A DNA stretch of 55,869 bases from a virus (taxonomy: Duplodnaviria; Caudoviricetes), in IMG/VR virus record IMGVR_UViG_3300012347_000446, positions 1 through 55,869 of that record; one strand, given 5' to 3'. Below are positions 5,879 to 46,110 of this stretch, in pieces. Position 1 is the first letter of the stretch, and every line of letters begins with the position of its first letter. Both the position numbers and the translations under genes were made by a program. The notes beneath the pieces are model-generated. The model made no database searches. It saw only the letters and a list, made by a program, of their open reading frames with translations, and was not told where the DNA came from.

Positions 5879-7063
5879 ATGAGTTGGATTACAAAAGCAC
5901 AAGACTGGATTAGCACAAAGCTAAACCCAGCACAAACCCGAATTGCACAAGATGCCGGTACACATGTTGGCAGCGACGCTAAATTAACTTATTTTCAAAG
6001 CTTTCAAAAGCTTGAGTCTGTTAATCGCAGTGTTAGCTTGTTAGTAAACGCTTGCGCAAGCCTAGACTACGACGTCAAAGACAAAGTTCATGACGGTATT
6101 GTCACAGGCATCAGACAAAAAACACTAAACACACTACTTAACTTCAGACCTAACCCGTATCAATCGGCACAAGAGTTTCGCAGTTCACTGTTCACCGATT
6201 ATGTACTAGAAGGCAACGCCTTTGTACACTTTGACGGCGTGTTTATGTATCACCTACCCGCAGACAAAGTTGAAATCTTAACAGATGAAAAAACTTTTAT
6301 TCGCGGCTTTCGCTACAACGGCTTAATAGATTTTAAAGAGTCCGAAGTTTTCTACTTTCGCGACTTGAGTTCAGACTCAATCTATCGTGGCAGCAGCCGT
6401 TTGCAAAGCGCAGATCGCAGCGTTAAATTGCTGTATTCAATGCAGCAGTTCCAAGAAAACTTCTTTGACAACGGAGCTGTGTTTGGTTTAGTACTAACCA
6501 CTGACAACACGCTATCGCAAGTTGCCAAAGAAAAAACAATTGCCTACTGGCTACAAAAGTACAATGTAAAAAATGGCGGCAAAAAGCCTGTTATCTTGGA
6601 TAGCGGCCTAAAACCACATCAGTTAGCCGAAACCAATTTCAAAGACATGGATTTTGATGTAAGCATTAAAACTCATGGTGAAAAGATCATGCAAGCTATT
6701 GGTGTGCCACCAATCTTGCTGCAGGGTGGAAACAATGCTAACATTGCTCCTAACCTGCGATTGTTCTATTTAGAAACGGTACTGCCAATTAACCGCAAAT
6801 TTATCAGTGCTGTTGAACGATACTTTGGTTATGACGTTGAAGCCATTACCAGTTCAGTAAGTGCACTACAACCAGAATTAAAAGACATTGCTGCTTACCA
6901 CGCAACACTGGTAAATGGTGGTATTATTAGTCCAAACGAAGCTCGCGTAGAGTTGCGTTATGAACCAAAGCCGGGCAATGACGATTTACGTATTCCAGCA
7001 AACATTGCTGGAAGCGCAGCAAATCCTAGCACTGGAGGACGTCCCGCCTCCGCCAAGGAATAA
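5879..7063 (+). CDS. HK97-family portal protein
   Basis: RPNPYQS, LEGNAF, YRGSSRL, IGVPPILL, SPNEAR motifs. Confidence 0.95.
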   Translation: MSWITKAQDWISTKLNPAQTRIAQDAGTHVGSDAKLTYFQSFQKLESVNRSVSLLVNACASLDYDVKDKVHDGIVTGIRQKTLNTLLNFRPNPYQSAQEFRSSLFTDYVLEGNAFVHFDGVFMYHLPADKVEILTDEKTFIRGFRYNGLIDFKESEVFYFRDLSSDSIYRGSSRLQSADRSVKLLYSMQQFQENFFDNGAVFGLVLTTDNTLSQVAKEKTIAYWLQKYNVKNGGKKPVILDSGLKPHQLAETNFKDMDFDVSIKTHGEKIMQAIGVPPILLQGGNNANIAPNLRLFYLETVLPINRKFISAVERYFGYDVEAITSSVSALQPELKDIAAYHATLVNGGIISPNEARVELRYEPKPGNDDLRIPANIAGSAANPSTGGRPASAKE

Positions 7064-7077
7064 CACAAAGGGGTATT

Positions 7078-9006
7078 ATGGTAGATAAAAATAAAGTCCT
7101 GTTTTTGAACAGTTCTTTTACTAAGAGTGAACCTCTACCAACTGCTGACGGAAAAATTGATAGTGTAATCATTGAAGGTTATGCATCAACCAATGACGTT
7201 GACAGACACGGCGATATTGTTCCTGCAAGTGTGTGGGAAGCTGGTATTAAAAATTACTTGAAAAACCCTGTAATTTTAGCTTACCACAATCACAGTGAGC
7301 CTGTGGGTAGAATGACGGATCACAGAGTAGATGAAAAAGGCCTATATGTAAAAGCCCGTATTTCTGCTGCTGCTGAAGACGTTTTTAATCTTGTAAAAGA
7401 CGGTGTGCTAACCGCCTTTAGCATTGGTTTCCGTATCGTTGATGCGGAATATAATTCAGCCTTAGAGCTGTTTGTTGTAAAAGAACTGGAACTACACGAA
7501 ATATCTGTTGTGTCTGTGCCAGCTAATCAAAATACACTATTTAGTCTTTCTAAGGCGTTTGATACAGCCGAAGAATTTAAATCATTCAAAATGCAGTTTG
7601 CAAGCAAAAGCGACTCAGCTAATGGGCTAGAAGCCTCCAGCGATGTAAACAGCGAAATTAACGAGGAATTGGAAATGAACCAAGAAGAACTACAAAAAAT
7701 GTTGGCCGCTGCCGCTACTGCTGCTGCTCAAGAAGCCACAAAATCTCTGCTAGCTGCTCAAGAAAAAGCTGCTGCTGAAAAAGCTGCTGCTGACGCTGCA
7801 CAAGCTGACCTAGACGCAAAAATCAAGGCTGCTGTTGCACTAGCAACACCAACCACAACTGGTGCTGAAGCCCTACTAGCCGAAGTTGAAAAGCGTTTTG
7901 CTGCTCAAGCCGACGAAACTAAGTCTGTTGTTGCAGGCCTAGAAGCTAGCTTGAAAGAAAAAGCTGCTGAACTAGAAGCCATCCAAAAGTCACGTATGCA
8001 ATTCCAAGACGGCAAAGCCGGCGAAATGTCTTATGCTGACAAAGAAAAGGCTGTTATCCTAGCCAAAATGGCAGGTAAAGCTCTAGATGACACCAAGTTT
8101 GGCCGTGAAATGGTCCAAAAGTTTGGCGCTCACCTACCAAGCGCAACTTGGGAACTAGAAGTTAGCCTGAACATGGAAAACGAAGTACGTCGTCGTTTGG
8201 TTATTGCTCCTACCCTACGTGGTATCTCAATGCAAACCAACGTGATGACTATTCCTGTGAACCCAGAAGCAGGTGTTGCAACTTGGATGGCTAACACAGC
8301 CTTCGGTACAACAGCTTCTGCTGGTAACACTGATACACACGCATTAAAAGAGATCACTCTAAATGCGTACAAAGTAGCAACAAACGAATACGTTGCATAC
8401 GAAGAAGAAGAAGACAGCTTACTGGCTATTATGCCTGTTATCCGTGACGCCATGGTTCGCCGTGTTGCCCGCGCTGTTGACCGTGCAATGATGCGTGGTG
8501 CAGGTACTGGTAGCGATCCAGTTAAAGGTCTAGCCGGTTACGATGCAGTAAGCGCCGTTACCTTAGATATCAGTGACGCAGCAAAAATGACTGTGGCCAA
8601 GCTACAGTTACTACGTCGTGATCTAGGTGCTTGGGGTCTAGACCCATCAGAACTAGTTTACATCGTAAGCACAGAAAACTACTACGACTTGTTAGAAGAC
8701 CCAATCTTCCAAACAATGGACAAAGTTGGTACACAAGCTACAGTTCTAACTGGCCAAATTGGTTCAATTGCTAACACTCCAGTTCTTGTAAGTGCTGAAT
8801 TTGAAGACAAGGCAGCAGGTACTGTTGGCGCTCTGTGCTACAACCCAGGCAACTTCTTGGTTGGTAATCAGCGTGGCCTACGTATCGACACACAAGACCT
8901 AGTGGAAACACAACGTCGTGTTATGGTAGCCAGCCTACGTACAGGTATGACACAAGTTACAACTAACCTAGGCCCAGCTATCTCGGCTCTACGTTACGTA
9001 GCTTAA
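7078..9006 (+). CDS. Fused HK97-type prohead protease + scaffold (delta) + major capsid protein; probable internal MCP start at 7675
   Basis: Protease motifs IEGYAST, DRHGD, AYHNH, FSIGF, EISVVSVPAN; Ala-rich coiled coil; T5 pb8-like capsid C-terminus; no stop between the parts. Confidence 0.9.
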   Translation: MVDKNKVLFLNSSFTKSEPLPTADGKIDSVIIEGYASTNDVDRHGDIVPASVWEAGIKNYLKNPVILAYHNHSEPVGRMTDHRVDEKGLYVKARISAAAEDVFNLVKDGVLTAFSIGFRIVDAEYNSALELFVVKELELHEISVVSVPANQNTLFSLSKAFDTAEEFKSFKMQFASKSDSANGLEASSDVNSEINEELEMNQEELQKMLAAAATAAAQEATKSLLAAQEKAAAEKAAADAAQADLDAKIKAAVALATPTTTGAEALLAEVEKRFAAQADETKSVVAGLEASLKEKAAELEAIQKSRMQFQDGKAGEMSYADKEKAVILAKMAGKALDDTKFGREMVQKFGAHLPSATWELEVSLNMENEVRRRLVIAPTLRGISMQTNVMTIPVNPEAGVATWMANTAFGTTASAGNTDTHALKEITLNAYKVATNEYVAYEEEEDSLLAIMPVIRDAMVRRVARAVDRAMMRGAGTGSDPVKGLAGYDAVSAVTLDISDAAKMTVAKLQLLRRDLGAWGLDPSELVYIVSTENYYDLLEDPIFQTMDKVGTQATVLTGQIGSIANTPVLVSAEFEDKAAGTVGALCYNPGNFLVGNQRGLRIDTQDLVETQRRVMVASLRTGMTQVTTNLGPAISALRYVA

Positions 9007-11207: not shown

Positions 11208-11641
11208 GTAAAAGAACAAGCATTATACGTGCACTTGTAGAAAAATTAAAAACCATTGATGGTACTGCACCATACCAAACCAACTTAAGCTCAAACGCTT
11301 ATGCAAAACTAAAATTCTGGGACGAAGTTGAAGACTTTCCTAGTGTATACTGCACACCTGGCAGCGAACAGCGTGAATACCATCCCAGTGGGTTTACCTG
11401 GGGATTTTTAGGCATAAGCATAAAAGTTTACTGTCGTGGTGAAGAAGCCCAAACCGAGCTAGAACAGCTTTTAGAAGATGTTGAAACTTGCGTTGATGCA
11501 AACCGTGTGTTGGTATATGATGAAACCCGGCACTATGAAACAACTGAAATTTTAGTTCAGTCGATTACCACTGACGAGGGGCTGTTAGCGCCTTATGCAG
11601 TCGGTGAAATAAATTTACAGGTTCGATACCAACTTGTATAA
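11204..11641 (+). CDS. Tail terminator (T5 p142-like)
   Basis: Size, acidic FWDEVEDFPS and ITTDEGLLAP motifs, synteny. Confidence 0.75.
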   Translation: MSKRTSIIRALVEKLKTIDGTAPYQTNLSSNAYAKLKFWDEVEDFPSVYCTPGSEQREYHPSGFTWGFLGISIKVYCRGEEAQTELEQLLEDVETCVDANRVLVYDETRHYETTEILVQSITTDEGLLAPYAVGEINLQVRYQLV

Positions 11642-11712
11642 TCATAACCAAAACCAAGTGCAGATAATTGTCTAGCCACGGTCCAAGTTATTAACTATTT
11701 AAGGATACCAAT

Positions 11713-13768: not shown

Positions 13769-13787
13769 GTACCTAAAAAATTTCGGT

Positions 13788-13816
13788 TTGACAAATCTAT
13801 GCTGGTATGCTATAAT
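13788..13816 (+). promoter_or_regulatory. Consensus promoter for the tape measure gene
   Basis: TTGACA-17-TGcTATAAT. Confidence 0.85.
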
Positions 13817-41839: not shown

Positions 41840-42313
41840 ATGGTAATAGAAACACTACTAAGCGGAGTATTCGGCGGGTTACTTCGCCTTGCTCCAGAAG
41901 CAATGAAAATCTTTGATCGAAAAAATGAGCGAGAGCATGAACTAAAAATGCTGCAACTTGAGCACGAATTTGCCAAAACCAAAGCTGAAGCGCAAATTCG
42001 TCAAGGTGAACAGCAAGTTAACATCAAAGAGTTTGAAGCAATCAGTGCAGCTATTGAAGAACAATCTAAAACTTCACAAGCCGCTGGTTGGTTTATTGCT
42101 GCAATTAATGCACTAGTACGACCAACTACAACTTACTTGTTTTTAGGCTGCTACTTTTTGGTTAAAGCTGCACTATATTCTATGGCTACGGTTGCGGGAG
42201 CACCTTGGAATGAAGTAGTTATTGCACTTTGGACCAAAGATGATATTGCAATCCTATTCATGATTATCTCATTCTGGTTTGTAGGACGAGTATATGAACG
42301 AAAAGGCAGTTGA
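41840..42313 (+). CDS. Holin-like membrane protein
   Basis: VRP motif followed by two TM helices and FWFVGR; overlaps the lysozyme gene. Confidence 0.6.
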   Translation: MVIETLLSGVFGGLLRLAPEAMKIFDRKNEREHELKMLQLEHEFAKTKAEAQIRQGEQQVNIKEFEAISAAIEEQSKTSQAAGWFIAAINALVRPTTTYLFLGCYFLVKAALYSMATVAGAPWNEVVIALWTKDDIAILFMIISFWFVGRVYERKGS

Positions 42314-42752
42314 GCTAGCCACACAACTATGTATACATTTTGAGGGATTTTCTAGTACTCCCTACTTATGTCCGGCTGGATATTGGACTATAGGTTACGG
42401 TACTGTTTACAAGCCGGATGGTAGTCGTGTTACTGCTGCACATCCGGCTATATCTCGTGAAACTGCACTAGTTTGGTTGCAGCATGAAATAACTCACAAT
42501 TATATGCCGGCTGTGTTAAGTGTTACACCTGGTGCAGCCAAGTACCCAATGCTCTTAGGAGCACTTACAGACTTTGCTTACAACCTAGGCGGCCCACGCT
42601 ACCGTGCTAGTACACTAGCCAAGCGTGTACGTGACGAGCAGTGGACAGAAGCACGTAGCCAGCTATTGTTGTGGAACAAAGGCGGCGGCCGAGTCCTTCC
42701 AGGACTAGTTCGCCGCAGAGCAGCAGAAGCAAAATTCTTTCCGCAAAACTAA
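42294..42752 (+). CDS. Endolysin, GH24 lysozyme
   Basis: FEGF...YLCPAGYWTIGYG (E-x8-C-x5-T), FAYNLG, LPGLVRRRAAE. Confidence 0.92.
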   Translation: MNEKAVELATQLCIHFEGFSSTPYLCPAGYWTIGYGTVYKPDGSRVTAAHPAISRETALVWLQHEITHNYMPAVLSVTPGAAKYPMLLGALTDFAYNLGGPRYRASTLAKRVRDEQWTEARSQLLLWNKGGGRVLPGLVRRRAAEAKFFPQN

Positions 42753-42760
42753 AAATCGGA

Positions 42761-42789
42761 TTGACACCAAAACCTACAACTGGTATAAT
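42761..42789 (+). promoter_or_regulatory. Consensus promoter for phoH
   Basis: TTGACA-17-TGgTATAAT. Confidence 0.85.
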
Positions 42790-43604: not shown

Positions 43605-43644
43605 AAAAAGCCCCACGCTATTGCTAGTGTGGGGCTTCTTTTTT
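43605..43644. terminator. Bidirectional terminator between phoH and dps
   Basis: AAAAAGCCCCAC...GTGGGGCTTCTTTTTT. Confidence 0.8.
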
Positions 43645-44080
43645 ATGGTTGCATTGTTGAATACAACATCCAACCATGTTTACGGTGTGCATCAATGCGT
43701 TCACTTAAAAACGCACCAAGTCCGTGTTCACCTTCAGATTCTGCAAGTGAGTATGCTTGCATTAACGCCGCGTGAATTTTTCCGTTGTCAACGTATAGTG
43801 TACGTACCATCTCGGCTGGTGGCAATACTTCCAGCGTATCAAGAATCGTCGAATGTTCACTAAGTTGGCTAAAACTAGCAGGAACATAGCAGCGTACAGC
43901 ACGAACACGCTCAGCAAAGTCGTCCAGCTCATCATCTACCTCATCATAAATTTTTCCAAATAGTTCATGATACTGCATGAAATTTGGGCCTGTTACATTC
44001 CAGTGAAAGTTTTCTGCTTTGACTAAGAATGCATAGGTTGTTGCAAAAGCGCGTTTAAGCGCAAGTTTAAGTTCTTCCAT
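43643..44080 (-). CDS. dps: Dps / ferritin-like DNA protection protein
   Basis: HWNVTGPNF...HELF...DDFAERVRA ferroxidase signature; KHGWML. Confidence 0.92.
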   Translation of the reverse strand: MEELKLALKRAFATTYAFLVKAENFHWNVTGPNFMQYHELFGKIYDEVDDELDDFAERVRAVRCYVPASFSQLSEHSTILDTLEVLPPAEMVRTLYVDNGKIHAALMQAYSLAESEGEHGLGAFLSERIDAHRKHGWMLYSTMQP

Positions 44081-44089
44081 GTTATTTCC

Positions 44090-44686
44090 TTATATTGTCC
44101 ACCAGTTTCCATTATTAAAAATTACACTAACTGATTCATAAGGAGTTGTCATTGTAATTGTGGTAACGCCGTTTATTAAACTAGGTGATTCTGGTTGTAA
44201 GATTAGTTTTCTGTTACCCACAGGTGCACCAAACTCTAGTTTGATAGTGTACCTGGTTCCTGAGGGTACTGTGTTAGGCAGCTTGACAGTTGCTTTGTCT
44301 TTTAGTTGTGCACCAATATAGCAATCGGCTTCACTTGCGCAATAGTCCGAGGTAATAGTCACTGTGTTACACTCGCAGCCCTCGCAAGGTTCTGATGGAC
44401 CAGGAGGTCCAGGCGGTCCAATTACTGATCCTGCGTCTAGCACAGTACCATCACTTAGTGTAAGTAATAGGTTTCCTGGGTTAGGGCTTACTTCGGCCCC
44501 TACCACACTTATTCCATCTGTGCCATTAGCACCAGGTATTCCTTGTGGGCCTGCTGGCCCTTCTGGTCCTGGTACTGGCGTACCTCCAACCACACTGTTA
44601 ATAAACAAATCATTGTCTTCAATGGTTGGTGGCAGCGGCAAATACAGTGGCATAGGCCAACCAAAAGGCATAAATTGTTGTTGCAT
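44090..44686 (-). CDS. Collagen-like protein with Cys-rich linker and C-terminal beta domain
   Basis: GPEGPAGPQGIPG and GPPGPPGP triplets; PCEGCECN. Confidence 0.75.
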   Translation of the reverse strand: MQQQFMPFGWPMPLYLPLPPTIEDNDLFINSVVGGTPVPGPEGPAGPQGIPGANGTDGISVVGAEVSPNPGNLLLTLSDGTVLDAGSVIGPPGPPGPSEPCEGCECNTVTITSDYCASEADCYIGAQLKDKATVKLPNTVPSGTRYTIKLEFGAPVGNRKLILQPESPSLINGVTTITMTTPYESVSVIFNNGNWWTI

Positions 44687-44701
44687 AACAACTCCTTTAT
44701 G

Positions 44702-44735
44702 AAAAAAGCCCCCACGACTTGTGGTCTTGGGGGCT
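44702..44735 (-). terminator. Terminator/attenuator between the 304-aa gene and the collagen gene
   Basis: AGCCCCCA/TGGGGGCT stem plus T6 on the minus strand. Confidence 0.7.
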
Positions 44736-44743
44736 AGGACTAA

Positions 44744-45658
44744 TTAACGAATGTTAGTGTTAGTGTTTGCTGGGTTAGCAGTTAGTGTGCCGCTTCCAAC
44801 GTTGATTGCTTCATTTGTTGAACGAATACTTTGACCTAGGCTCCAGATCAAGTTGGCCAATTGACCGTACTGGGCTTGTTGTTGTTGCTGTTGTTGCATC
44901 TGATTGATGTTGTTGGTTGTTGTAACTTCAACACCACGTGCAGCATTACCACTGAACTCGCGACTACGTAGTTCAATAATTGCAGCATTAGCATCAGCTA
45001 ATTGACGCTGTAGGTTTAATTCGTACTGTTGTGTGATTAGTGCACGAGTCTTTTCACCGTCAGCACTAATATCCTTGCTTAGCTCATAACGATTTTCCAT
45101 GATGTTTTGGTTAATCGCTGCTTGGCCTTGCATTAAGGCAACTGCATTAGTATTAACAACATCTTTTAAGTTATCAGTACGAGCAGCCAGTGAGCTAGCT
45201 ACGTTGTTTAGTTGAGTTGTAATACCAAGAGTTTGTGTAGCTTGTGAAGCTTCCATTGAGGCTGTTGAAACTGCTGTTGCTTTATCAACTGCACCAATTG
45301 CTGCCATTAAGTCCATGTTAGCTTGGTTTTGTTCTGGAGGGTTACGTAGTGTTGCACCTAAGGCTGCTCCACTGCCATCGCCGCCTAATAGATTTCCGTT
45401 GTTGCGTAGTAAGCTTCCTAGGATAAGACCGCCAATTAAGCCGCCTCCACCACCGAAAACACCGTCACCACCGCCACTCATCATCATTCCTGCTGGGTTT
45501 AAAATTTCTGCCATTTTAGGCTCCTTTAAAGTTTCTTTAAGTTGAGATGCTAGTTGCTTGTAATACTCGTCAGCAAAACTAGCTTGTTGTTTTAGCGCTT
45601 CCATAGCTTCTGCAGTTGCTTCTGCAGAAACAGGTACGCCAGTTTTTGTATCATCCAT
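44744..45658 (-). CDS. Hypothetical Gly-rich hydrophobic / coiled-coil / polyQ-N protein; alternative start at 45514
   Basis: GGGGGLIGGLILGSLL, DGEKTRALI, NNINQMQQQQQQQAQ; AAGGAG SD before ATG 45514. Confidence 0.8.
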   Translation of the reverse strand: MDDTKTGVPVSAEATAEAMEALKQQASFADEYYKQLASQLKETLKEPKMAEILNPAGMMMSGGGDGVFGGGGGLIGGLILGSLLRNNGNLLGGDGSGAALGATLRNPPEQNQANMDLMAAIGAVDKATAVSTASMEASQATQTLGITTQLNNVASSLAARTDNLKDVVNTNAVALMQGQAAINQNIMENRYELSKDISADGEKTRALITQQYELNLQRQLADANAAIIELRSREFSGNAARGVEVTTTNNINQMQQQQQQQAQYGQLANLIWSLGQSIRSTNEAINVGSGTLTANPANTNTNIR

Positions 45659-45737
45659 ATTGTGTGAATTCCTATATAGTGGATTGATATGATACTGCGT
45701 ATCACTGCGCAGCTCACAAATCTTGTGAACTGATATA

Positions 45738-45766
45738 ATTATACAACAGTTTTTAAACTAGCGCAA
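45738..45766 (-). promoter_or_regulatory. Promoter for the accessory module
   Basis: TTGCGC-17-TATAAT. Confidence 0.65.
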
Positions 45767-45868
45767 CGCAACTTTTAGGGTTCCAGGAGCAAAAATGCAC
45801 GGTAACAAGAAATTATGCAGGATATTTTTGGGCAAGTGCATTGGCGCACCCTAACAATTTTTGACGAC

Positions 45869-45905
45869 AAAAAAGCCCCCGAGTTTTGCAACGCGGGGGC
45901 TTTTT
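45869..45905 (-). terminator. Terminator of the nrdJ operon
   Basis: AAAAAAGCCCCCG...CGGGGGCTTTTT. Confidence 0.85.
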
Positions 45906-45915
45906 CTTTGCCTAT

Positions 45916-46110
45916 TTATTCGGCAGCTTTTTCAACTTGTGATTCTTGAACTTGTTGAGCTTGCATTGCTGCAATCTGCTCTTGAGCTTGAGCTTTGATC
46001 TTCTCACTCAATGGATTGCAGATTTTAGCAGGCAACTCTTGTAGCGATGCCAAGATAATGTTGGCTTCTTCAAGATTTAAGGCAAAAGTAAAAATTGGGT
46101 TTTCGTTCAT
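45916..46110 (-). CDS. Small hypothetical protein
   Basis: 64 aa, LEEANIILASLQELP; directly after nrdJ. Confidence 0.7.
   Translation of the reverse strand: MNENPIFTFALNLEEANIILASLQELPAKICNPLSEKIKAQAQEQIAAMQAQQVQESQVEKAAE

What the first reader, a model, noticed from the sequence alone, without database searches (positions are those of the whole stretch)
43643..45766. Self-contained accessory module: Gly/polyQ-N coiled-coil protein + Cys-rich collagen-like protein + Dps
Seen: own promoter (45738-45766), flanking terminators, and three co-oriented genes at the junction of the late and replication arms. Gene 1 has a Gly-rich hydrophobic segment, a long Ala/Gln/Asn coiled coil and a prion-like NNINQMQQQQQQQAQ tail. 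An internal terminator would make it far more abundant than gene 2 (Pro-rich leader, collagen triplets, PCEGCEC, beta head) and gene 3 (Dps with intact ferroxidase residues). None shows a classical signal peptide. Established: collagen plus Cys-rich proteins build spore exosporium-type coats, and Dps sequesters iron and protects DNA. Inference: best candidate here for an undescribed system, a self-assembling intracellular matrix, filament or coat (major subunit plus minor collagen spike) protecting phage DNA, virions or the infected cell under oxidative or starvation stress. phoH converges on it.
Basis: partly seen in the sequence, partly recalled or inferred. Interest (0 to 1): 0.85.

Follow-up and report, generated by a model that had tools for sequence, protein, structure and literature searches.

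The report
Portable phage rod-and-knob cassette plus Dps
An uncultured freshwater T5-like phage carries a separately transcribed pair of genes for a long helical rod protein of a large unknown family and a small collagen-stalked knob protein of the kind phages use in fibres, with an optional iron-storage (Dps) gene beside them; where the assembly sits and what it does is still unknown.

Summary
In detail: three minus-strand genes (g1 44744-45658, g2 44090-44686, dps 43643-44080), a TTGCGC-17-TATAAT promoter, and hairpin terminators before g1, after g1 and after dps.

The three-gene "system" does not hold.
- **g1 and g2 are a conserved pair.** A g2-family gene lies downstream of g1 in 70 of 73 related viral loci. 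These include complete phages whose capsid and tail proteins are unrelated to this phage.
- **Dps is optional.** It occurs in 23 of 61 loci, at varying positions.
- **g1 founds a large uncharacterised family.** More than 2,127 clusters at 90% identity and 273 at 50%; no Pfam hit. It has an invariant glycine zipper, a helix of about 178 residues, an invariant alternating-Gln stretch and a very conserved C-tail.
- **g1 is made from two conserved in-frame starts**, and its mRNA is bracketed by conserved hairpins.
- **The g2 C-terminal knob has the T4 gp9/gp10 / CBA120 TSP4-XD / Pa223 capsid-spike-knob fold** (Z 10-12).

Most likely (about 0.45) this is a portable accessory fibre cassette. A non-virion self-assembling structure and a membrane-active role for g1 are not excluded. 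This scan noted the same cassette earlier on three other genomes.

The parts
45869..45905 (-). Intrinsic terminator of the upstream 64-aa gene (45916-46110); it isolates the g1 unit from the RNR arm
   Evidence: GC hairpin plus T-run read. Terminator-type leader models match 45867-45981 on the minus strand. A plus-strand hairpin at 45893-45911 was listed.
45738..45766 (-). Promoter-like site: -35 TTGCGC (45766-45761), 17-nt spacer, -10 TATAAT (45743-45738)
   Evidence: The -10 is invariant in 21 of 21 aligned relatives. The -35 matches in only 3 of 6 positions, and the generic scan did not list the site.
45710..45732 (-). Stem-loop at the predicted 5' end of the g1 mRNA, followed by a conserved CTGCGCAGTGATACGCAG element
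   Evidence: RNAalifold on 21 relatives gives a 10-pair helix; 4 of its pairs are kept through changes on both sides (5 of the 15 pairs in the whole predicted structure). RNA-library contigs end joined to adapter letters at 45713 (X11) and 45707 (X13). This is a hint only.
44744..45658 (-). g1, long isoform (304 aa): 48-aa helical N-extension, Gly-rich segment with glycine zipper G73-x3-G77-x3-G81, helix 108-285, alternating-Gln stretch 253-263, conserved C-tail 286-304
   Evidence: No Pfam or PHROG hit. 2,127 homologues, capped. 273 clusters at 50% identity.
44744..45514 (-). g1, short isoform (256 aa) from the internal ATG at 45514-45512 (M49), with Shine-Dalgarno AAGGAG at 45526-45521. This equals the only form in many other phages.
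   Evidence: A GGA-core Shine-Dalgarno plus ATG is kept in 29 of 29 distinct relatives that bear the extension, although the encoded residues differ. Short forms start MAE....
44702..44735 (-). Hairpin (-19 kcal/mol) plus T-run between g1 and g2: terminator, attenuator or 3' stabiliser
   Evidence: 52 of 54 distinct relatives have a hairpin of -12 kcal/mol or stronger in the same place, against 5 of 162 shuffles. One RNA-library contig bridges it (X13, 44349-45355).
44090..44686 (-). g2 (198 aa): conserved Gln/Pro/aromatic N-terminal motif (1-35), two short collagen runs split by a small beta insert (61-88), a Cys cluster, and a C-terminal knob (106-198)
   Evidence: Knob fold. 274 homologues; 13 of the 120 listed carry Pfam Collagen.
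43643..44080 (-). Dps-type ferritin-like protein, starting 9 nt after the g2 stop; an optional neighbour, not a core part
   Evidence: Occurrence 23 of 61.
43608..43637 (.). Bidirectional terminator hairpin shared by dps and the converging phoH

Best explanation
g1 and g2 form a portable accessory fibre-type cassette. Dps is an unrelated stress or iron gene that happens to sit in the same variable island.

**Shown:**
- g1 is an elongated protein. Its long helix would be about 26 nm if straight.
- g1 is made as a long and a short isoform.
- The g1 mRNA is bracketed by a 5' hairpin and a 3' hairpin.
- g2 has a conserved N-terminal motif, a collagen-like stalk of variable length, and a knob with the fold of phage appendage attachment domains.
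- The pair travels together between unrelated phages. The g2 body is swapped or multiplied while its N-terminus and the g1 C-terminal 60 residues stay conserved.

**Inferred:**
- g1 oligomerises into a rod, probably as a trimer to match collagen.
- The conserved g1 C-terminal part is the socket for the conserved g2 N-terminus.
- The variable knobs are the distal part that binds the host or a surface.
- Extra g2 paralogues in other phages branch from the knobs, as tailspikes do on gp10-like domains.
- The assembly decorates the virion (head or tail fibres) and helps adsorption.
- The attenuating hairpin gives more rod than knob protein.
For: **Synteny.** A g2-family ORF starts within 400 nt of the g1 stop in 65 of 73 loci with enough DNA, and lies somewhere downstream in 70 of 73. 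In five of the rest, Dps is simply inserted between the two genes.

**Portability.**
- G003 and G004 share capsid (68-72%) and tail-tube (55-58%) proteins with the window but hold the cassette elsewhere in the genome.
- G001 (170.8 kb, complete) and G002 have no match to either protein, yet carry g1 at 66-72% identity (best tblastn segment) together with g2 arrays.

**Fold.** The g2 knob (pLDDT about 97) matches:
- CBA120 TSP4: Z 12.0, rmsd 2.0, 91 residues aligned.
- T4 gp10: Z 10.2.
- T4 gp9: Z 10.0.
- Pa223 capsid-spike knob: Z 10.6.
- Of at least 500 BFVD matches with E up to 10, 479 have E of 0.001 or better. Those named include tail fibre, minor tail and collagen-repeat proteins.

**Pattern typical of receptor-binding modules.**
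- g2 is the fastest-changing gene of the neighbourhood: 58-76% identity where RNR is 93-96%.
- In seven loci only its first 25 to 33 or so residues still match by tblastn.
- Its N-terminus is its best-conserved part: 0.51 against 0.40 for the knob.
- In g1 the C-tail (0.88) and the Q/N stretch (0.81) are the best-conserved parts.

**Rod.** One helix from 108 to 285, with pLDDT 84-94 over residues 111-240 and falling to 72-84 from 241 to 280.

**Expression design.** Conserved -10, a 5' hairpin with compensatory changes, and a 3' hairpin. RNA-library contigs cover g1 in 4 of 4 runs laid.

**Annotation of a relative.** PhiPLPE gp38, a true homologue, lies among virion and fibre genes and is annotated 'putative tail-fiber protein' by its depositors. 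That is an annotation, not a test.
Against: - No virion evidence exists for any member. In PhiPLPE the mass-spectrometry note is on gp34, gp35 and gp63, not on gp38, although only three genes carry it at all.
- The cassette lies outside the structural module, among nucleotide-metabolism, tRNA or auxiliary metabolic genes in the window, G001, G004 and KLER1-1.
- A virion fibre needs a docking site. Yet the same short g1 form, and the same small flanking proteins, occur in phages with unrelated capsids and tails.
- g1 is far more conserved than fibres usually are.
- No heptad periodicity: 771 of 1,000 shuffles reach the observed power at period 3.5.
- Cultured distant homologues have no g2-like neighbour, so g1 can work without g2.
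- The hairpin implies that g1 exceeds g2, which a 1:1 rod-knob fibre does not need.
Confidence: 0.45

Rival explanations
1. A non-virion self-assembling structure, which is the first reader's idea without Dps. g1 is an abundant subunit that polymerises into filaments, sheets or a matrix in or on the infected cell. Polymerisation would run through its invariant glycine zipper and its alternating Gln/Asn/Thr stretch. g2-family proteins would be minor decorating or capping subunits.
For: - The expression design resembles major-subunit genes: a 5' hairpin, a 3' hairpin, and an attenuator before the minor gene.
- The cassette is self-contained and moves between phages with unrelated virions.
- It lies in accessory or auxiliary-gene islands, not in structural modules.
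- In distant homologues too, the region around 240-265 shows a strict alternation (V.V.V / T.N.T.N / Q.Q.Q.Q). That suits a beta ladder better than a helix face. AlphaFold2 confidence is lower there, 80-84.
- g1 is very conserved, as self-interacting polymers are.
Against: - The g2 knob fold is known only from virion appendages among the strong matches.
- g2 evolves and is swapped like a host-range protein. An internal matrix would not explain that.
- No polymer has been modelled or seen.
- There is no signal peptide for an extracellular version (by eye).
Confidence: 0.22
2. g1 is a membrane-active protein: a holin/antiholin-like pair of isoforms, a viroporin, a superinfection-exclusion or envelope-spanning factor. 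Its hydrophobic glycine zipper inserts in the membrane. The 48-residue acidic extension of the long isoform changes topology or timing. g2 would be only a neighbour or a separate fibre.
For: - The G-x3-G-x3-G zipper is invariant in the only hydrophobic segment. Its Kyte-Doolittle mean over 19 residues is 1.61.
- The two in-frame starts are conserved. From recall, such starts are the hallmark of holin/antiholin pairs.
- In Acinetobacter phage At2 the homologue lies three genes upstream of a gene that, by my own reading of its sequence (no family search), looks like an endolysin. Next to that is a protein with an N-terminal hydrophobic segment and a coiled coil, spanin-like on the same basis.
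- In the window the lysozyme gene is 2 kb away.
- The helix length, about 26 nm, is near the width of a Gram-negative periplasm (recalled).
Against: - A simple sum on the recalled Hessa insertion scale gives +2.9 kcal/mol for the best 19-residue window, and the hydrophobic core is only about 11 residues long. It is marginal as a transmembrane helix.
- The window has its own membrane protein overlapping the lysozyme start (41840-42313).
- In most contexts no lysis gene is nearby.
- The starts are 48 codons apart, not 2-3 as in known dual-start holins (recalled).
- The tight g1-g2 synteny stays unexplained.
Confidence: 0.13
3. g1 is a virion needle or ejection-type protein. It would be carried in or on the particle and extend through the envelope at infection, using its glycine-rich hydrophobic tip.
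For: - Rod length and composition: Ala/Gly/Asn/Leu/Gln/Thr make up 62%; no Cys or His and one Trp in the short form.
- A hydrophobic Gly-rich tip.
- One 402-aa relative (P0252) joins the g1 C-terminal half to a long helical N-part with Gly-rich hydrophobic stretches. By my reading only, that part is like a tape-measure protein.
Against: - The family occurs in sipho-type, N4-like and dwarf-myo-type genomes, which solve penetration differently.
- It has its own promoter outside the structural genes.
- A collagen-knob partner does not fit an ejected protein.
Confidence: 0.08
4. Three unrelated accessory genes ('morons') with no functional link.
For: Dps clearly behaves this way. Distant g1 homologues lack g2.
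Against: g1 and g2 are adjacent in 65-70 of 73 loci across different genomic contexts and unrelated phages.
Confidence: 0.05

Closest known systems
T4 gp10 / gp9 domains and the XD domain of CBA120 tailspike TSP4 (PDB 5iv5, 1qex, 7rej/7rfo/7rfv)
   Same: The g2 C-terminal domain (106-198) superposes with Z 10-12, rmsd 1.9-2.1 Å and 86-91 residues aligned. From recall, these domains are trimeric modules on which other fibres or spikes are hung.
   Different: - Sequence identity is only 14-19%.
- In g2 the domain is terminal, on a 198-aa protein with a collagen stalk, not part of a large baseplate or tailspike protein.
- No baseplate context.
- Trimer state and binding partners were not tested.
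Pseudomonas phage Pa223 capsid spike gp52 (PDB 9ny6; bioRxiv 10.1101/2025.06.11.659172, passages read)
   Same: The overall logic matches: a short N-terminal attachment arm, a trimeric stalk, and a C-terminal knob. The knob matches the g2 knob at Z 10.6. The spike is an accessory that leans on the capsid threefold axes, and its authors suspect a role in adsorption.
   Different: - The Pa223 stalk is a triple beta-helix, not collagen.
- There is no separate rod protein.
- The gene lies with the structural genes.
- Virion location is shown for Pa223 and unknown here.
Iodobacter phage PhiPLPE gp38 ('putative tail-fiber protein'), Acinetobacter phage At2 NNFDKGAK_00065, Pararheinheimera phage KLER1-1 gp74
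   Same: True homologues of g1. They share the Gly-rich hydrophobic segment, the DGEKTRALI-type motif, the alternating Gln stretch and the ...ANPTN... tail. PhiPLPE gp38 is the only significant BFVD fold match.
   Different: - 30-44% identity over part of the length.
- No g2-like gene beside them.
- None has been characterised; the PhiPLPE label is an annotation.
Trimeric rod fibres such as P22 tail needle gp26 and T4 fibritin (recalled, not tested)
   Same: A rod of about 25 nm made mostly of one long helix per chain; an accessory role; some needles end in a knob.
   Different: - No sequence or profile match to any solved structure.
- No heptad periodicity.
- The knob is on a separate polypeptide.
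- The glycine zipper and Gln ladder have no counterpart.
Dps (DNA-binding protein from starved cells), e.g. PDB 8ff9, 1n1q
   Same: Gene 3 matches over its whole length (E 3.1e-19 and 6.4e-15) and keeps the ferroxidase-type H, H, D, E positions in the printed alignment. It also matches PHROG 3636.
   Different: - Phage-borne.
- The N-terminus is very short, so there is no Lys-rich tail of the kind E. coli Dps uses for DNA binding (recalled).
- Dodecamer formation and iron oxidation were not tested.
Bacillus exosporium BclA-type collagen proteins
   Same: A Pro-rich N-terminal targeting segment, a collagen stalk and a C-terminal trimeric beta knob.
   Different: - No spore-former is involved; the known hosts of relatives are Gram-negative.
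- The strong fold matches of the knob are phage appendage domains.
- BclA was not among the listed matches, which does not exclude a distant likeness.

Membership tests
Dps / ferritin-like (Pfam PF00210) | Ferritin-like four-helix domain over the whole protein | tested here: met
   Pfam E 3.3e-17, 63.2 bits against a cut-off of 24.5, residues 7-142. 53 solved Dps-type chains match at E 0.001 or better.
Dps / ferritin-like (Pfam PF00210) | Inter-subunit ferroxidase ligands (two His, Asp, Glu) | tested here: met
   H26, H38, D53 and E57 align with identical residues of 8ff9 in the printed alignment. That these positions are the ligands is recalled.
Dps / ferritin-like (Pfam PF00210) | 12-mer shell, iron oxidation, DNA binding | not testable with these tools
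   Needs protein work.
Collagen triple helix (Pfam PF01391) | Uninterrupted G-X-Y repeats long enough for the family model | tested here: not met
   The window's g2 has only 6+3 triplets and no Pfam hit. 13 of 120 listed homologues do carry PF01391, and relatives have far longer runs.
T4 gp9/gp10-like (XD) appendage domain | Beta-sandwich fold of about 90 residues | tested here: met
   Z 10.0-12.0, rmsd 1.6-2.4 Å, 83-91 residues aligned, model pLDDT about 97.
T4 gp9/gp10-like (XD) appendage domain | Trimer that docks other virion proteins; located in baseplate, tailspike or capsid spike | not testable with these tools
   No virion data. The one complex job gave no answer (see Tried and rejected).
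Heptad coiled-coil virion fibres (fibritin / tail-needle type) | Long helix | tested here: met
   Helix 108-285.
Heptad coiled-coil virion fibres (fibritin / tail-needle type) | 3.5-residue hydrophobic periodicity | tested here: not met
   Power at period 3.5 is reached by 771 of 1,000 shuffles. At period 11/3 it is reached by 24 of 1,000. The best peak overall is not beyond shuffles: 159 of 1,000.
Heptad coiled-coil virion fibres (fibritin / tail-needle type) | Sequence or profile relation to a solved fibre | tested here: not met
   The profile of 43 sequences finds no PDB chain at E up to 1.
Dual-start holin/antiholin | At least one true transmembrane helix | tested here: inconclusive
   The best 19-residue window has a Kyte-Doolittle mean of 1.61 and a simple insertion sum of +2.9 kcal/mol on a recalled scale.
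Dual-start holin/antiholin | Two in-frame starts | tested here: met
   An internal Shine-Dalgarno plus ATG is kept in 29 of 29 distinct relatives. The starts are 48 codons apart.
Dual-start holin/antiholin | Next to the endolysin gene | tested here: not met
   In the window another membrane protein overlaps the lysozyme start (41840-42313 and 42294-42752). g1 is 2 kb away across phoH, dps and g2.
PHROG 9288 / 8119 (unknown function) | Profile match | tested here: not met
   The window's g1 matches no PHROG. 14 and 9 of 118 distant family members do, so the family overlaps these PHROGs only at its edge.

The most novel reading that the evidence does not exclude
The cassette encodes a phage-borne, self-contained polymer system that is not part of the virion.
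- g1 rods would lock side by side, through the invariant glycine zipper and a Gln/Asn/Thr beta ladder, into filaments or a lattice. This would be a phage cytoskeleton, a matrix or an extracellular net.
- Swappable collagen-knob proteins would tie this polymer to host or particle surfaces.
- The cassette is portable between unrelated freshwater phages because it needs no docking site on any capsid or tail.
Probability: 0.2. Interest if true: 0.8.

Novelty: new variant of a known kind. Interest (0 to 1): 0.55.

Why it matters
- **Size of the family.** It is conserved at 60-85% between phages that share no capsid or tail protein. It is built for high expression and is present in RNA libraries from four studies.
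- **If the fibre reading is right.** The cassette would be a plug-in host-range or adhesion module that moves between phage families. That matters for host prediction and for understanding adsorption in lakes.
- **If the polymer or membrane reading is right.** It would be a new kind of phage-made cell structure.
- **It is testable now.** Three cultured phages (At2, PhiPLPE, KLER1-1) carry homologues.
- **A caution for annotation.** Dps next to a gene pair should not be read as one system.

Tried and rejected
- **Complex prediction** of g1(48-304) x3 with g2(1-60) x3 gave 'no answer' (score 0.00, mark 0.32). It counts neither for nor against binding.
- **Fused forms.** No protein of 533-2000 aa matched g1 residues 100-304. 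This is weak evidence. Representatives up to 575 aa exist. Their N-terminal additions are of four kinds: a beta domain of about 100 aa, Arg/Gly/Tyr/Asp-rich disordered stretches, a helical extension, or a long helical N-part.
- **The beta domain** has only sub-threshold structural neighbours in the Atlas (TM about 0.5) and no PDB sequence match.
- **Fold search with the g1 model** found only its own homologue, PhiPLPE gp38.
- **The ESM Atlas** found only unnamed viral clusters.
- **Rfam.** No family matched at gathering score in the window. Only terminator-like sub-threshold hits appeared.
- **Temporal class from promoters** cannot be told. Consensus-type promoters stand before structural genes (for example upstream of 11713 and 13882), before phoH and before replication genes alike.
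- **RNA contig depth.** Contigs over g1 have higher k-mer depth than neighbours in three of four RNA runs. Contig depth cannot rank genes, g1 is the most conserved gene so strains collapse on it, and DNA carry-over is possible. It was not used as evidence.
- **Scaffolding-protein idea for g1: rejected.** The capsid protein is fused to its protease, and phages with unrelated capsid proteins share g1.
- **Prophage or host origin.** Only 3 hits among 185,579 species genomes, all contigs of metagenome-assembled genomes.
- **orf64 as part of the cassette: rejected.** It is not related to the small family that precedes g1 elsewhere (hhalign probability 0.1).
- **Literature.** Searches found no paper on such a cassette or on phage Dps in this setting. 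The At2 paper is a genome announcement (listing and abstract only). The PhiPLPE-group paper PMC3391216 (passages only) does not mention gp38. The original PhiPLPE paper is not in the library. Supplements were closed.


Full report
**What the window is.** The window is an IMG/VR viral contig estimated to be 53% complete.
- The plus-strand arm encodes terminase, portal, a fused protease-capsid protein, tail tube, chaperone, a 2,241-aa tape measure, several fibre proteins, a membrane protein overlapping a lysozyme gene, and phoH.
- The minus-strand arm encodes a class II ribonucleotide reductase, an exonuclease, SbcCD-like proteins and a helicase.
- The capsid protein is about 36% identical to those of Vibrio T5-like phages. 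The phage is therefore an uncultured, distant T5-like siphovirus.
- All 13 runs that hold a quarter or more of the sampled words of this stretch are labelled freshwater or aquatic metagenomes. The four laid are all labelled freshwater and hold contigs 95-99% alike over parts of the region.

**The observation.** It is correct at the stated coordinates. The main corrections:
- The -35 is weak (3 of 6).
- The Gln run is internal and invariant, not a drifting tail.
- 'Coiled coil' is not established.

**Gene 1.**
- It has no Pfam or PHROG match.
- It has 273 clusters at 50% identity with E of 0.001 or better in 1.84 billion representatives.
- The only cultured carriers found are Acinetobacter phage At2 (N4-like by its 10-kb gene), Iodobacter phage PhiPLPE (gp38) and Pararheinheimera phage KLER1-1 (gp74).
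- Of 185,579 species genomes, three contigs from metagenome-assembled genomes hold it.
- 14 and 9 of 118 distant members touch PHROGs 9288 and 8119, both of unknown function.
- In 43 aligned sequences, the invariant positions include G73, G77 and G81 (a G-x3-G-x3-G zipper), every second residue from Q253 to Q263, and parts of the C-tail.
- Region by region, mean identity to the window is 0.24 for the N-extension, 0.74 for the Gly segment, 0.66 for the rod, 0.81 for the Q/N stretch and 0.88 for the tail.
- AlphaFold2 (mean pLDDT 72.8) gives one helix from 108 to 285, a helix from 12 to 45 in the extension, and a disordered Gly-rich part.
- Hydrophobic periodicity at 3.5 is absent. A weak 11/3 signal (24 of 1,000 shuffles) does not survive the search over periods.

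**Two isoforms.**
- Many relatives start at the equivalent of M49 (MAE...; about 252 aa).
- In the window a strong Shine-Dalgarno (AAGGAG, 45526-45521) precedes this ATG.
- In 29 of 29 distinct relatives that bear the extension, a GGA-core Shine-Dalgarno lies 6-11 nt before the internal ATG, although the encoded residues vary (LKE, LKD, LGD, EKE, KGE, TEG, TGD, SGD and others).
- This repeats, on my own data, what scan note e1-6034631 said about a relative.

**Gene 2.**
- It has 274 homologues, all unnamed; 13 of the 120 listed carry Pfam Collagen.
- The alignment of 48 sequences shows a conserved N-terminal motif (Gln-rich, then PFGWP-type, then D.DLFIN-type), collagen runs from a few to more than 30 triplets, and a C-terminal domain.
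- AlphaFold2 gives mean pLDDT 84.2, with about 97 for residues 111-198.
- The knob matches CBA120 TSP4 (Z 12.0), a Klebsiella phage baseplate protein (11.7), an Acinetobacter phage tailspike (11.9), the Pa223 capsid-spike knob (10.6), T4 gp10 (10.2) and T4 gp9 (10.0). Unrelated folds follow at Z of 3.3 or less.
- The Pa223 preprint (passages read) describes its spike as an N-terminal attachment arm, a stalk and a knob on capsid threefold axes.

**Neighbourhood.** I fetched 80 viral loci with g1 relatives. Many are near-duplicates of each other, so the counts are not independent.
- By tblastn, g2 is found in 49 of 80 loci, Dps in 25, RNR in 39 and phoH in 37.
- With profiles, 73 loci have at least 700 nt after g1. 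In 65 of them a g2-family ORF starts within 400 nt, and in 70 one lies downstream. L048, L066 and L068 have none by this test. L016 and L045 had no whole g1 ORF.
- In L036, L056, L057, L061 and L064, Dps sits between g1 and g2.
- Dps is in 23 of 61 loci with at least 3 kb downstream, all of them in the RNR context.
- Arrays of two to four g2 paralogues follow g1 in, for example, L037, L041, L053 and L078.
- G003 and G004 (98 kb, terminal repeats) share capsid and tail-tube proteins with the window. G001 (170.8 kb, terminal repeats) and G002 do not. All four have one g1.
- In those other contexts two further small families flank the cassette. One, of about 85 aa, lies before g1 or after the array (hhalign probability 98% between the two placements). 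The other, of about 75 aa, lies after the array. Neither is in the window, and orf64 is unrelated to them.

**RNA features.**
- The hairpin after g1 is -19 kcal/mol in the window.
- A hairpin of -12 kcal/mol or stronger stands within 66 nt of the g1 stop in 52 of 54 distinct sequences, against 5 of 162 shuffles.
- The stem letters differ widely between lineages.
- Right after the -10, a 10-pair hairpin is kept in 21 relatives; 4 of its pairs show changes on both sides (5 of the 15 pairs in the whole predicted structure).
- RNA-library contigs cover g1 in 4 of 4 runs. One bridges the g1-g2 junction (44349-45355). Two from different studies end, joined to adapter letters, at 45713 and 45707. Contigs cannot prove a transcript end, and DNA may be present in such libraries.

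**Dps and the stress idea.**
- Gene 3 is a sound Dps.
- Near the cassette in other phages I confirmed rubrerythrin (L041, L073), AhpC and a CMD-family protein (L037), and NifU_N plus Fe-S_biosyn (L037, L029).
- In the four larger records the distances from g1 vary. NifU_N is 0.4 kb away in G002 and 9.4 kb away in G001. Rubrerythrin is 3 kb away in G004 and 54 kb away in G001. G003 has none.
- I read this as a common accessory island. No background rate was computed, so a looser link is not excluded.

**Reading.** The pair behaves like a modular fibre.
- A conserved proximal part (g1, above all its last 60 residues) is combined with a distal protein.
- The N-terminus of that distal protein is kept while its stalk and knob are lengthened, swapped or multiplied.
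- The knob has a fold used by phages to hang appendages.

What does not fit a simple virion fibre:
- The location among non-structural genes.
- The extreme conservation of g1.
- The same short g1 form, with no lineage-specific part, in phages with unrelated virions.
- An expression design that favours g1 over g2.

I therefore give the fibre reading 0.45 and keep three rivals: a non-virion polymer (0.22), a membrane-active g1 (0.13) and a needle or ejection role (0.08).

**Earlier notes of this scan.** Notes e1-6060713, e1-6034631 and e1-6013019, on other genomes, reached much the same reading. They are AI notes and do not count as independent support.

Noticed in passing
window 45695-45732 (minus strand): The g1 leader holds a 5'-terminal hairpin kept by compensatory changes. 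It also holds a second, almost invariant element (CTGCGCAGTGATACGCAG type). No Rfam family matches. It may be an mRNA stabiliser or a processing site.
   Followed up: partly
L029 about 5940-6010; also L039, L041, L067, L072, L073 and L048 upstream of g1: In another genomic context the g1 leader has two overlapping, mutually exclusive pairings (a CTGGCA...TGCCAG hairpin against GGCAAGTA.TAC...GTATTACTTGCC), followed by TATAATTATAA about 25 nt before the ATG. This looks like a switch or attenuator. It was read by eye only.
   Followed up: no
L020 5556-5813 and 7347-7595; L037 8998-9270; many other loci: Two small protein families without any Pfam hit flank the g1-g2 cassette in other phages. The ~85-aa one appears either before g1 or after the g2 array (hhalign probability 98% between the two placements). 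Both are absent from this window.
   Followed up: partly
L037 860-1902 and 5201-5886; L029 10147-10856; L041 8926-9378; L073 10234-10734: Peroxiredoxin, a CMD-family protein, IscU-type and IscA-type Fe-S assembly proteins, and rubrerythrin lie within a few kb of the cassette in other freshwater phages. This recalls Dps here. No background rate was computed.
   Followed up: partly
window 7078-9006 (plus strand): Prohead protease and major capsid protein are fused in one 642-aa ORF. PHROG protease matches cover residues 28-314 and capsid matches cover 371-626.
   Followed up: no
window 42761-42789 (plus strand): A perfect TTGACA-17-TATAAT with TG lies upstream of phoH. Similar consensus sites stand before the tail-tube gene (about 11602-11642), the tape-measure gene (about 13776-13816) and several others. 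Promoter form does not separate early from late genes here.
   Followed up: partly
P0329, P0360 (representatives of distant g1 relatives): Some family members carry N-terminal stretches of 230-330 residues that are rich in Arg, Gly, Tyr, Asp, Glu, Ser and Pro (disordered, low complexity). Others carry a ~100-aa beta domain starting MW..L. The part of the protein before the glycine zipper is a swappable module.
   Followed up: partly
run X8 record 25; window 44086-44601: An RNA-library contig joins dps to the end of g1 with 1,218 other letters in place of 514 bases of g2. A close relative in the same water therefore has a different or larger g2 region.
   Followed up: no
L001 7582-8483 (Acinetobacter phage At2): Three genes after the g1 homologue lies a gene that looks, by eye, like a cell-wall hydrolase. 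Next to it is a protein with an N-terminal hydrophobic segment and a coiled coil (spanin-like). Both are annotated as hypothetical. No family search was run on them.
   Followed up: no
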